A stretch of DNA of 64,000 nucleotides, taken from NCBI GenBank assembly GCA_030835905.1, contig JAURQX010000040.1, forward strand, positions 299-64,298, written 5' to 3'. Positions 27,001 to 30,000 of the stretch are shown here, piece by piece. The position numbers are program-made. This stretch comes from Alphaproteobacteria bacterium (GTDB lineage: Bacteria; Pseudomonadota; Alphaproteobacteria; Rickettsiales; UBA1997). The first letter of the stretch is position 1. Every line of letters begins with the position of its first letter.

Positions 27001-30000
27001 AGCATCTGGTACAGTTTTATGTAAGGATTCATCGCTTGGAACCCAAATAATTGCACCAGCAGGACTTTTGGTTTGTTGCCAATCTAGCTTAAGAAGATTT
27101 TCTAGATAAAGAGTTGACCATTGAGTTGGGGCTTGTGTCCAAGCGCCTTCAAGGCCACTAGTAACAGTATCTTCAGAATGTCCTTTGCCACATTTATTTT
27201 TCCAGCCTAAACCTTGAGCTGAGATTGGTGATGCAGCTGGTTCTTTGCCGACGCACTCAGCTTTTTGAGCGCCGTGCATTTTCCCAAATGTGTGTCCACC
27301 GGCAATCAAAGCAACTGTTTCTTCATCATTCATTGCCATTCGACCAAAGGCAGTTCTGATATTTTTGGCAGAACCAACTGGATCGGGTTTGCCCATCGGA
27401 CCTTCTGGATTAACGTAAATTAATCCCATGTGAGTAGCCCCAAGAGGCCTTTGTAACTTACCATCTTTTTCTTTTCGATCACTAGCTAACATTTCAACTT
27501 CAGGACCCCAATAGACTAGATCTGGCTCCCAATCATCAGCTCTGCCGCCAGCAAATCCATATGTTTCAAATCCCATATTTTCTAGAGCAACATTACCAGA
27601 TAAAATCATTAGATCTGCCCAAGATAAACTACGACCATATTTTTGTTTAATTGGCCATAATAAACGACGCGCTTTGTCAAGATTGCCATTATCTGGCCAG
27701 CTATTTAACGGGTCAAAACGCATTTGACCACCATCTCCACCACCACGACCATCAAGTGTTCTATAAGTTCCTGCACTATGCCATGCTAAACGAATAAAAA
27801 ATGGGCCATAATTTCCAAAATCTGCTGGCCACCAGTCTTGCGAGTCAGTTAAGACTTTATTTATATCTTTTTTAACTTCATTCAAATCTAGTTTACTAAA
27901 TTCTGCTGCGTAATCAAAGTCAGATCCATATGGATTTGATTTTTTGTCATGATCTCTAAGGGATGATAAATCAAGTTGAGTAGGCCACCAAAAATTGTTT
28001 GGCCTAGCATTAGCACTATATTTTTTGATATTTTCAGTTGTAAATTTTATTTTGAAATCTTTAGCTAAATCGTTGGCTATAGAGTATGAAGTTGAGGAAA
28101 TTAAAATTGATCCAATCAATGCAGTAGTAGTCAAAAGACTTTTTGCATGAAAATTCTTCTTATTTAGCATAGCTATCTTGATTTAGTTGATAAAATTATA
28201 CTTTTTATTAACTCGTGTAAAAATATTATAAGTTATAACAGTTTATGCACGAGTTAATATGTTTTTTAAAATTTGAAATTTTAATTTGTAACTTTTTTTT
28301 AAAATTGTAGATATTAGCTCATACGTAAGCTAGTTGCCTTTTGAAATTAACATATAGATAAGTCAATTAAGATTCAGACTTTTATAAGGCAAATTTTGGC
28401 TATAAATTTAATTTAAAACCTTGAAGTATATCCAATACTACTGCGGTTTTAACTTAAATTTCTATCTCAAAATTTTCTCATATAAAATTTCTAAATCTTA
28501 ACTGACTTATCTATATTCCTTAACAAAACAATTTTTCAAATCCAAATTAGCAGTTAGTAATATAGCTTTTTTAGATTGCTTTGTTAAGAAATATTTCTTG
28601 TCACAAGCGCAACTAGTTTGTGCGCAAGTTAATAATTTTTATTAGACTTCTTGCATAACTGCCAAATTTTGGTAATTTTTTCGTTATTAAAAATTTTTGA
28701 AACTCACGTACATCAAAGTACGCTAAAATTCCAAAAATTTTTAATGCCTACAAATTCCTCAAAATTTTATGGTTATGCAAGAAGTCTATTGAGCTATTGG
28801 TTAATTTGCAGTGATCTTCAAAAATTCTTATTACAAATTTGGTTCAAGAGATTTATAAGTATAATATATTAAGCTTATAGTATTATTAATGTTTTCTTAT
28901 TAAGTAATTTTCAGTGTTTAGGTCCTGTCAAATTAGATTTGTTATTAGCTGCTTGATCTTTTTTTTAATATTTGTAAAGGCTTATGCTAAAAACTCCTTT
29001 AAAAATATTCAAAATGACAAATCTTCAACAATTATAAAAGCAAATCAGGTCGATGGCGATCAAAAAAACATGATCTTAAGAGCGACTGGAGATGTTGAAA
29101 TAAGTAAAGGTTTAAGCAAGATTACTGCTGATGAAGTTGCGTATGATAAAAAAAATAAAAAAATTGAAATTAAAGGCAATATTGTTGCTAACAACCTTGA
29201 AGTTGGTCGCCTTAATTCAAGTGAGGCAGAGGTCAAAGATGATTTTACAAGTGGCTATTTTAAAAATGCTGAAATGATATTTAATGATGGTTCTTATATT
29301 AAAGCAAGCAAGGTTGAAAAGAAGAATCCGATATCAACTATTTTTTATAATCCAATTTATTCATTTTGTCCAAATGATGAAATTGCTAACAATTCAGACA
29401 ATATAGGAAAGAAAAAAAATTTTGCAGCAATTAGATCAAAAAAAACAAAAATAGATAAAGAAAGCCAGTCAATCAAAACTACCCACGGTTTTTTTGAAAT
29501 ATACGATGTTCCAGTTTTCTACACGCCATATTTTAGTGCACCTCTTTCATCCGATAAGAAAGAAACGGGATTTTTATTTCCAAGCTATGATCGAAATAAC
29601 CAATTTGGCATTGGGGTAAGGTTACCCTTTTATGCCAATATTGCTCCAAATAAAGATTTGTTAATTACTCCTAAAATCGGTCTAGATGGAGAGAAGTATC
29701 TAATCACCAATAATTTTCGTCACTTAACTTCATATGGTCAGTACGATCTATCACTCGAATTCGCTAATAATAAAATTAATTCTGAAGAAAATGATGCTAC
29801 AATTGTTAACAGAAGTAGCAATAACATCAGATGGTTATTTCAAGGTAAGGGCGACTTTGATTTTAACGAAAATTTTGGTTTTGATTATTCAGCTAACACT
29901 CTGTCAGATTCAAGTTATCTTAGAGATTACCAAAATGATTATCTTAACTACTCTTTAACTCAGGCTAACTTCGATTATATTAAAGATCGTGACTATTTTG

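What the first reader, a model, noticed from the sequence alone, without database searches (positions are those of the whole stretch)
28352..28788. Two long imperfect palindromic elements side by side in the katG-lptD intergenic region, part of a dispersed family
The elements at 28352..28516 (165 bp) and 28643..28788 (146 bp) each fold end to end into a hairpin with 17-20 bp near-perfect termini. Further copies lie at 1748..1814, 3074..3242 and 53578..53741. There seem to be subfamilies: the elements at 1748 and 28643 share a CGTAC-loop-GTAC apex, and those at 28352 and 53578 share a GTATATCC apex. Several arms share gccaaattttgg-like or aaattttctc-like strings. They are non-coding; track ORF 28651..28872 is an artefact of one of them. 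They resemble MITEs or Rickettsia palindromic elements, and they inflate this intergenic region to 743 bp.
Basis: seen in the sequence. Interest (0 to 1): 0.6.

Follow-up and report, generated by a model that had tools for sequence, protein, structure and literature searches.

The report
Nested miniature transposons between katG and lptD
The two long hairpins between katG and lptD are real copies of small non-coding "jumping" DNA elements (MITEs) that litter this uncultured Rickettsiales genome; one has landed inside a third such element, the other carries the ends of an IS5-type insertion sequence, and the whole thing is an ordinary kind of selfish DNA.

Summary
A (28352-28516) and B (28643-28788) fold end to end (dG -50 and -48 kcal/mol, z about -10). 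Both belong to dispersed repeat families in a 1.25-Mb, 31.5% GC Rickettsiales MAG. The genome holds 198 self-palindromic elements; a Markov-simulated genome holds 2.

A and B are unrelated to each other.

- A has 9 copies (mean pairwise identity 94%) found only in this genome. It sits inside a third palindromic element, X. Intact X copies give an empty site showing a TA target duplication.
- B has 5 full copies and at least 5 interrupted ones, and also occurs in a sister species. Its 17-bp end TAGACTTCTTKCRWAAC also bounds 890-950-bp elements in metagenomes that encode an IS5-family transposase. 12 of 14 B-type copies are flanked by a 3-bp ATT/AAT repeat.

The other window copies are further families: D makes TA duplications, and E makes TTA/TAA duplications and has IS630-type relatives in the same genus.

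No transposase matching A or B is present in this 88%-complete assembly. No family member lies inside a gene, so these are MITEs, not Rickettsia palindromic elements in the strict sense. 514 of the 743 spacer bases are repeat-derived.

The scan has found similar elements before in other Rickettsiales genomes. This is a new member of a known kind.

The parts
25867..28170 (-). katG-like catalase-peroxidase gene (767-aa ORF), left border of the spacer
   Evidence: Pfam PF00141 peroxidase, E 2.7e-70, two stretches
28207..28257 (.). 51-bp mini-hairpin whose ends are X-type terminal repeats (TTAACTCGTG...), flanked by TA on both sides. Probably an internal-deletion derivative of element X.
   Evidence: Inverted repeat I6. 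Its right arm matches the X terminal repeat TTAACTCGTGCATAAACT read.
28314..28632 (.). Element X, a palindromic MITE of about 166 bp with ends TTAAC.CGTGCACAAACTA. It is split by A into 28314-28354 and 28514-28632. TA lies on both outer flanks (28312-13 and 28633-34).
   Evidence: With A and one TA removed, the joined sequence aligns continuously at 81% over 165 bp to intact copies G000:C48:40011-40175, C45:7292-7455, C57:15649-15799 and C49.
28355..28513 (.). Element A proper: 159 bp, terminal repeat TAGATAAGTCAATTAAGATT, with duplicated TA at 28353-54 and 28514-15. It is a MITE nested in X.
   Evidence: Empty site ...TTAACATATTCC... in four intact X copies against filled ...TTAACATA[TAGAT..ATCTA]TATTCC.... 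TA flanks all 9 copies. The 9 copies are 90-96% identical to the window copy. Fold z -10.3.
28644..28787 (.). Element B proper: 144 bp, AGACTTCTTGCATAAC...GTTATGCAAGAAGTCT, flanked by ATT at 28641-43 and 28788-90. It is a MITE with IS5-family ends.
   Evidence: Fold z -9.7. Copies occur in G000 and G003. An A[A/T]T direct repeat flanks 12 of 14 copies. The same 17-nt end bounds 890-950-bp elements that encode HTH_Tnp_4 + DDE_Tnp_4.
28651..28872 (+). 73-codon ORF that starts inside B; not a gene
   Evidence: No Pfam family. Its first 46 codons or so are B sequence, which is repeated at 10 or more unrelated places.
28914..31094 (+). lptD gene (726-aa ORF), right border of the spacer
   Evidence: Pfam LptD E 5.7e-44 and LptD_N. 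Orthologues occur in five relatives, where katG is not found within about 1.5 kb upstream of lptD.
1748..1814 (.). 67-bp decayed relic of a family-0 (B-like) core, without terminal repeats
   Evidence: Weak fold, z -3.6. Local alignment to the B core z 4.4 and to the 0b core z 6.4. Only one other partial BLAST hit.
3074..3242 (.). Element D (family 1, TA|GACACTGTTG...), a MITE that makes a TA duplication
   Evidence: Fold z -12.2. 24 clustered members. The copy at G000:C19:14304-14469 is inserted in a family-2 element with empty sites elsewhere, giving a TA duplication.
53578..53741 (.). Element E (family 4, ATACCAAAC...), a MITE with IS630-type ends. It is flanked here by TAA on both sides, and its core is homologous to that of A.
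   Evidence: Fold z -13.6. 10-11 copies. A related family shows a TTA duplication by empty site. A 1105-bp element with a similar terminal repeat and a DDE_3 match lies in same-genus genome G001 (L044:1403-2507). This copy also serves as an empty site for a 0b insertion.

Best explanation
[quoted passage not shown] They are short non-coding DNA bounded by terminal inverted repeats, which a DDE transposase encoded elsewhere cuts and pastes, duplicating a few target bases.

Shown:
- Both belong to multi-copy dispersed families.
- A inserted into a pre-existing element X at a TA, which it duplicated.
- B's 17-18 terminal bases are identical to the ends of 890-950-bp IS5-family insertion sequences in metagenomes.
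- B-type copies are flanked by a 3-bp ATT/AAT repeat.

Inferred:
- B is, or was, moved in trans by an IS5-family (NF033581-type, two-ORF) transposase.
- A is moved by a TA-duplicating transposase that has not been identified.
- The transposases lie in unassembled repeats or have been lost.
- The copies at this locus are passengers with no role in katG or lptD expression.

The end-to-end hairpin follows from the inverted-repeat architecture. The body keeps its symmetry, and this is not evidence for a structured RNA.
For: Copy number and chance:
- 9 A copies and at least 10 B-type copies.
- 198 palindromic elements against 2 in a simulated genome.
- 78 of 114 contig ends stop inside such elements.

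Mobility of A:
- Removing A plus one TA restores an 81%-identical, 165-bp alignment to four intact X copies.

Mobility of sister families, shown by paralogous empty sites:
- 0b inserted in E, with TTTAA duplicated.
- D inserted in family 2, with TA duplicated.
- Family 28 inserted in another repeat, with TTA duplicated.

B's driver:
- The pattern TAGACTTCTTKCRWAAC occurs in more than 120 metagenome contigs.
- Inverted pairs 892, 931, 950 and 910 bp apart enclose two overlapping frames with HTH_Tnp_4 (E 1e-11 to 1e-14) and DDE_Tnp_4/DDE_Tnp_1 (E 1e-17). NCBIfam calls them IS5 family, NF033581.
- 12 of 16 independent metagenomic elements with these ends, and 12 of 14 B-type copies in G000 and G003, have ATT or AAT on both flanks.

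Ends co-vary:
- In family 0, 12 of 53 pairs show compensatory double changes, 8 of them in the terminal 17 bp. None of 500 shuffles reached this. This is expected of two ends read by one transposase.

Decay in A:
- 9 pair-breaking changes against 1 compensatory change, as for neutral copies.

Other checks:
- No Rfam family, no terminator, and promoter-like sites below the shuffle expectation.
Against: - No transposase with matching ends is in this assembly. PF01609, PF05598, PF13358, PF01359, PF13359 and PF01797 gave nothing. The only insertion sequences seen are IS1 and IS481 types with other ends.
- A's terminal repeat was found in none of 125 other genomes of the family beyond control level. 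A search of the order gave only noise. A's driver is therefore unknown.
- No empty site was found for B itself, so its 3-bp duplication rests on flank statistics. A TA duplication with a flank preference is not excluded.
- The MITE bodies are not derived from the interior of the candidate parent insertion sequences; only 17-37 terminal bases match.
Confidence: 0.85

Rival explanations
1. They are Rickettsia palindromic elements (RPEs) in the strict sense: members of the RPE-1 to RPE-10 families, which insert in frame into genes and add peptide segments.
For: - The host is a Rickettsiales bacterium.
- The size of 146-165 bp and the palindromic, AT-rich structure match the general description of RPEs: 105-146 bp, terminal repeats, long stem-loops (PMC2229807).
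Against: - No member of any clustered family lies in an open frame of 150 codons or more; only two unrelated singleton palindromes do.
- A, X and B give no significant match in 40 relatives outside the genus. They also give none in four complete genomes of another family of the order (best E 7e-4 over 24 nt).
- A target duplication is demonstrated for A by an empty site and inferred for B from flank repeats. It is listed as unknown for RPEs.
Confidence: 0.04
2. The hairpins are selected functional elements, such as small RNAs, attenuators or protein-binding cruciforms that regulate the divergent katG and lptD promoters, and are not selfish DNA.
For: - They lie between two divergent genes.
- The family-0 core keeps its pairing through three compensatory changes in the inner stem.
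- A short motif, CTCAAAAWT, recurs at a fixed distance from one end in 10 families.
Against: - The same sequences occur at dozens of unrelated loci and inside one another.
- katG was not found within about 1.5 kb upstream of lptD in four relatives, so the spacer itself is not conserved.
- There is no Rfam match, no terminator, and promoter-like sites are fewer than in shuffles.
- A copies decay by pair-breaking changes.
Confidence: 0.06
3. They are REP/REPIN-type palindromes moved by a RAYT (Y1) tyrosine transposase, or IS200/IS605-type hairpin-end elements.
For: - Palindromic repeats with a conserved small apical hairpin (GTATATC..GATAC-like) occur in several families.
Against: - There is no Y1_Tnp (PF01797) match in the genome, while 6 of 14 control genomes matched.
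- The elements are 4-5 times longer than REPs and have terminal repeats plus target duplications. Y1 transposition does not make target duplications (established knowledge of IS200/IS605).
- B's ends match DDE-type IS5 elements.
Confidence: 0.02
4. They are chance hairpins of AT-rich intergenic DNA.
For: The genome is 31.5% GC, which favours spurious A/T pairing.
Against: - Fold z-scores are about -10.
- Multiple copies are 90-98% identical at unrelated loci.
- There are 198 such elements against 2 in a composition-matched simulation.
Confidence: 0.01

Closest known systems
Bacterial MITEs in general (Correia/NEMIS of Neisseria, ERIC, RUP), as reviewed in PMC2229807 and PMC10969869
   Same: - Under 200 bp, non-coding, AT-rich, with terminal inverted repeats.
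- TA at the termini, target-site duplication and a long stem-loop fold.
- Many dispersed, mostly intergenic copies, and insertion into other mobile elements.
   Different: - The sequences are unrelated.
- The host is an uncultured Rickettsiales lineage.
- At least 14 multi-copy families co-exist in 1.25 Mb, with three different duplication lengths (2, 3 and 5 bp).
- No host-factor site such as the IHF site of Correia elements has been shown.
RUP of Streptococcus pneumoniae with IS630-Spn1 (Oggioni and Claverys 1999, as described in PMC2229807)
   Same: The MITE and the insertion sequence share only their terminal repeats, and mobilisation in trans is inferred from that and from the target duplication. 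This is exactly the logic used here for B with IS5-type elements, and for E and family 6 with IS630-type elements.
   Different: - B's partner belongs to the IS5 family, not IS630, and the duplication is 3 bp (ATT/AAT), not TA.
- The partner was found in metagenomes, not in the same genome.
Small two-ORF IS5-family elements (ISL2 / IS1031 groups), e.g. ISCaa2, ISCaa3 and ISCaa8 of Amoebophilus asiaticus (PMC3196728); PIF/Harbinger-ISL2EU superfamily (PMC12730594)
   Same: - The candidate drivers of B are 890-950 bp with terminal repeats of about 18 bp, and the transposase is split over two frames.
- They carry HTH_Tnp_4 + DDE_Tnp_4 domains.
- Duplications of 2-3 bp are typical of this superfamily.
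   Different: - Assignment to a particular IS5 subgroup was not tested.
- The elements with B's ends come from unidentified metagenome organisms.
- B itself carries no coding sequence.
Rickettsia palindromic elements (RPE-1 to RPE-10; Ogata et al. 2000, 2002, as summarised in PMC10969869 and PMC2229807)
   Same: Same bacterial order, similar length, palindromic, multi-family and lineage-specific.
   Different: - None is inserted in frame in genes here.
- Target duplications and insertion-sequence partners are identifiable here.
- No sequence similarity was detected.

Membership tests
MITE (miniature inverted-repeat transposable element) | Short (under about 300 bp) and without coding capacity | tested here: met
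   A proper is 159 bp and B proper 144 bp. The only overlapping ORF (73 codons) has no family hit.
MITE (miniature inverted-repeat transposable element) | Terminal inverted repeats | tested here: met
   A has 32-nt arms at 88% complementarity. B has 60-nt arms at 78%, with perfect 19-bp ends. The ends are conserved across copies.
MITE (miniature inverted-repeat transposable element) | Many dispersed copies at unrelated loci | tested here: met
   A has 9 copies on 9 contigs. B-type has at least 10 places in G000 and several in G003.
MITE (miniature inverted-repeat transposable element) | Target-site duplication shown by filled versus empty sites | tested here: met
   A: TA, from four paralogous empty sites in intact X copies. 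B: no empty site, but ATT/AAT flanks 12 of 14 copies, and 12 of 16 independent metagenomic elements with the same ends.
MITE (miniature inverted-repeat transposable element) | Terminal repeats shared with an autonomous insertion sequence that can supply the transposase | tested here: inconclusive
   B: met in metagenomes (L091, L109, L120, L129) but not in G000 itself. A: no partner found in 125 family genomes or 400 genomes of the order.
IS5-family-derived MITE (applies to B) | Ends identical to those of elements encoding a DDE_Tnp_1/DDE_Tnp_4 (IS5 family) transposase | tested here: met
   17-18 of 18 terminal bases are identical. Pfam PF13613 + PF13359/PF01609. NF033581 at 41.6 + 108.3 bits over the two frames.
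IS5-family-derived MITE (applies to B) | Body derived from the parent insertion sequence by internal deletion | tested here: not met
   Only the terminal 17-24 nt match; the 102-nt core has no counterpart in the insertion sequences. A true deletion derivative of the insertion sequence does exist elsewhere (L098, 521 bp).
Rickettsia palindromic elements (RPE) | In-frame insertion into protein-coding or RNA genes | tested here: not met
   No member of a clustered family lies in an open frame of 150 codons or more.
Rickettsia palindromic elements (RPE) | Sequence similarity to the RPE-1 to RPE-10 consensus sequences | not testable with these tools
   No RPE consensus was available to me.
REP/REPIN with RAYT | Associated Y1 (RAYT) transposase gene | tested here: not met
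   PF01797 found nothing in G000, while 6 of 14 control genomes matched. The assembly is 88% complete.

The most novel reading that the evidence does not exclude
The hairpin body, not the ends, is the persistent unit. One roughly 100-nt palindromic core is found with the ends of two different IS5-family transposons. B/0a has TAGACTTCTT ends and a 3-bp duplication. 0b has AAGACCCCTGCA ends, a 5-bp duplication and a recent burst of at least 31 copies. A second core is shared by A (TA duplication) and the IS630-type E family (TTA/TAA duplication). On this reading, these Rickettsiales MITEs switch drivers by acquiring new terminal repeats, perhaps through the frequent nesting seen here. The shared CTCAAAAWT-bearing, symmetry-preserving core would be kept because it contributes something to transposition or to tolerance by the host.
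Probability: 0.3. Interest if true: 0.5.

Novelty: new member of a known kind. Interest (0 to 1): 0.3.

Why it matters
- It explains an oversized spacer: 514 of the 743 bp between katG and lptD are four stacked selfish elements, not regulatory DNA. It also removes a spurious ORF.
- It explains why this MAG is so fragmented: 78 of 114 contig ends stop inside such repeats.
- More broadly, it adds a well-anatomised set of MITE families, with their duplication lengths and candidate IS5 and IS630 drivers, to an uncultured Rickettsiales lineage. This supports the view that palindromic selfish DNA is common across the order, not peculiar to Rickettsia.
- The shared-core, different-ends pattern is a small testable lead on how MITE families are born.

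Tried and rejected
- An ungapped hairpin scan missed most elements and was replaced by a gapped self-inverted BLAST.
- Orthologous empty sites: the nearest genome has LptD at only 61% identity and no katG found next to lptD, so cross-species spacer comparison was useless. Paralogous empty sites inside other repeats were used instead.
- The genome contigs pattern scan only recovered the sister MAG, plus one match in an unrelated MAG.
- Searches of G000 for IS4/IS5, DUF772, IS630, mariner, Harbinger-like and Y1 transposases found nothing. rve hits were an IS481-type element with unrelated ends.
- The 30-aa remnant peptide in G000:C32 has no Pfam hit. Its IS5 nature was only inferred later from the G003 homologue.
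- A search for A's terminal repeat across the family and the order gave control-level noise. The one multi-copy hit (G467) is inside a repeated coding region, not a terminal repeat.
- A DNA search for the full insertion sequence behind 0b in relatives found only fragments.
- Rfam gave only sub-threshold plant miRNA-precursor matches, which are generic AT-rich hairpins.
- The REP/RAYT, terminator and small-RNA readings were considered and rejected, as set out under the rival explanations.
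Full report
**Observation.** The window comes from contig C23 of a 57-contig, 1.25-Mb, 31.5% GC assembly. Its nearest named relative is a "Rickettsiales bacterium" MAG. The spacer 28171-28913 lies between a divergent catalase-peroxidase gene and lptD, both confirmed by Pfam.

A (28352-28516) folds at -50.0 kcal/mol, against -16.3 +/- 3.3 for shuffles. B (28643-28788) folds at -47.9 kcal/mol, z -9.7. 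The repeat finder reports the same arms.

The other three sites also fold. For D (3074-3242) z is -12.2 and for E (53578-53741) it is -13.6. The 67-bp site at 1748-1814 is weak, at z -3.6.

**More than chance.** A gapped search for self-inverted stretches finds 198 palindromic elements in the genome (196 after merging overlaps, 24.5 kb, median 139 bp).

Clustering gives at least 14 multi-copy families. 78 of 114 contig ends stop inside such an element, 46 of them in family 0. Copy numbers are therefore underestimates.

**Families.**
- A belongs to a family of 9 copies on 9 contigs, with mean pairwise identity 94%. No copy was found in 40 relatives. Its terminal repeat does not rise above control level in 125 genomes of the family.
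- B belongs to subfamily 0a, with 5 full copies (median 89% identity) and at least 5 interrupted ones. Copies at about 84% identity occur in sister genome G003.
- B shares a 102-nt core at 81% identity (z 31) with subfamily 0b. That subfamily has different ends (AAGACCCCTGCAAATCAAC) and at least 31 nearly identical copies (median 98.5%).
- A and E share an 82-nt core (z 6.7). The relic at 1748 matches the family-0 core (z 4.4-6.4).
- A and B are not detectably related (z 0.9).

**A is nested in a third element.** Removing A plus one TA from the spacer produces a sequence that aligns without a break, at 81% over 165 bp, to four intact copies of another palindromic family, X. Those copies read ...TTAACATATTCC... 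where the window reads ...TTAACATA[TAGATAAG...CTTATCTA]TATTCC....

- A proper is therefore 28355-28513.
- It inserted into a pre-existing X (28314-28632) and duplicated TA.
- TA flanks all nine A copies, whereas longer candidate duplications fail in most of them.
- A 51-bp mini-hairpin with X-type ends lies at 28207-28257.

With B, 514 of the 743 spacer bases are repeat-derived.

**Mobility of the sister families.** Nested copies with paralogous empty sites show three insertions:
- 0b inserted into an E-type element and duplicated TTTAA. The window's own E copy serves as one of the empty sites.
- D-type inserted into a family-2 element and duplicated TA.
- An ATACCA-type element duplicated TTA.

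Four of seven internal 0b copies carry exact 5-bp duplications.

**The driver of B.** The 17-nt end TAGACTTCTTKCRWAAC occurs in more than 120 metagenome contigs. In four of them, inverted pairs 892-950 bp apart enclose two overlapping frames.
- These frames carry HTH_Tnp_4 and DDE_Tnp_4/DDE_Tnp_1 domains.
- NCBIfam assigns them to the IS5 family, NF033581.
- A 521-bp internal-deletion copy and many MITE-sized pairs with unrelated interiors also occur.

Twelve of 16 of these independent elements have ATT or AAT on both flanks, as do 12 of 14 B-type copies in G000 and G003. ATT and AAT are reverse complements. The simplest reading is a 3-bp duplication of one trinucleotide, with the element proper beginning at AGAC. 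A TA duplication with a flank preference is not excluded, because no empty site for B was found.

The size, the two-frame transposase and the 2-3-bp duplications match small IS5-family and PIF/Harbinger-type elements described in the literature (PMC3196728; PMC12730594).

**Drivers of the other families.**
- E-type and family-6 ends match 1.08-1.12-kb elements with DDE_3 (IS630-type) hits in same-genus genomes G001 and G002.
- 0b's first 19-27 nt match a 1364-bp IS5-family element in G003 that encodes a 347-aa transposase (251 bits to NF033581). They also match fragments at G000 contig ends.
- No partner was found for A.
- None of the transposase families searched occurs in G000 except one IS1 copy and IS481-type copies with other ends. 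The assembly is 88% complete and breaks at repeats.

**Structure versus function.**
- In the A family, substitutions break pairs 9 times and compensate once. That looks like neutral decay.
- In family 0, 12 of 53 pairs show double compensatory changes, and none of 500 shuffles reached this. Eight of the 12 lie in the terminal 17 bp, as expected for two ends read by one transposase. Three lie in the inner stem.
- There is no Rfam family, no terminator-like site, and fewer promoter-like sites than in shuffles.
- No family member lies within a long ORF.
- katG was not found within about 1.5 kb upstream of lptD in four relatives checked.

Nothing suggests a role for A or B at this locus.

**Comparison with known systems.**
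- The elements meet the tested MITE criteria; the one inconclusive point is a matching autonomous insertion sequence, found for B only in metagenomes and not found for A. B parallels RUP with IS630-Spn1 in logic, but with an IS5-family partner (PMC2229807).
- They resemble Rickettsia palindromic elements only in general appearance. In-frame insertion into genes, the hallmark of RPEs (PMC10969869), is not seen.
- No similarity was found in other Rickettsiales genomes searched.
- Earlier follow-ups of this scan reached similar conclusions for other Rickettsiales genomes, including an IS630-derived MITE with TTA/TAA duplications.

**Residual curiosity.**
- The MITE bodies are not derived from the interiors of the candidate parents.
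- The same body appears with different ends and different duplication lengths: 0a against 0b, and A against E.
- A CTCAAAAWT motif sits 30-43 nt from one end in 10 families, a 14-fold enrichment.

This suggests that bodies persist while ends are exchanged. It is a modest lead that can be tested.

**Verdict.** These are new MITE families of a known kind, and interest is low to moderate.

Noticed in passing
G000:C30:25792-26845 (outside the window); mini copy at window about 34880-34929: A single IS1-family insertion sequence lies inside a B-type element. It has an InsA-like zinc-finger frame, then a DDE_Tnp_IS1 frame (PF03400, E 1.8e-11) after an A-run. Hairpins of about 50 bp made of its two ends (CGATTTGATGATTAAAATAG...) sit at the same internal position in many family-0 copies and at a few other sites, one of them in the window.
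   Followed up: partly
G000 contig ends, e.g. C23:1-140 (just upstream of the window), C29:1-140, C56:1-139, C32:1-282: A longer repeat with ends AAGACCTCTGCATTTCTACC... breaks the assembly. C32:1-282 is a deletion derivative that keeps a 30-codon N-terminus similar to that of the IS5-family transposase of sister genome G003. The full element is not assembled in G000.
   Followed up: partly
G000 family 0b, e.g. C39:15354-15494, C19:14105-14245; G003 L238:1228-2591: Subfamily 0b has at least 31 copies (median 98.5% identical) and 5-bp duplications, which points to a recent burst. It shares its body with B but its ends with a different, 1364-bp IS5-family element.
   Followed up: partly
G000:C36:15285-16480: An IS481-type insertion sequence with a 364-aa transposase (HTH_29 + rve/rve_3) and terminal repeats TGTAAAAACCACTACTTGATCTGACAG. 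A fragment of the same end abuts another element at C34:1531.
   Followed up: partly
Ten element families genome-wide, including window 28352-28516, 28643-28788 and 53578-53741: The motif CTCAAAAWT (often CCTCAAAAWT) lies 30-43 nt from one end in families with unrelated terminal repeats. It is 14-fold enriched over the rest of the genome and absent from the subterminal parts of the candidate parent insertion sequences.
   Followed up: partly
G000:C12:8692-8866 and C3:2054-2247: Two singleton palindromes of 175-194 bp lie wholly inside open frames of 793 and 633 codons. They belong to none of the repeat families and were not examined.
   Followed up: no
window 25781-25834, 1383-1432, 13632-13667, 55827-55866: Short self-complementary stretches of 36-54 bp that are not members of the long families. 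The one at 25781-25834 lies between the 3' end of katG and the cupredoxin-like gene and may be a terminator.
   Followed up: no
L159:763-2757 (metagenome contig): An element of 1995 bp with B-type ends contains a second transposase of a different type (two frames of 145 and 200 aa resembling IS630/Tc1-like proteins) as well as fragments of the IS5-type one. It appears to be a nested insertion.
   Followed up: no
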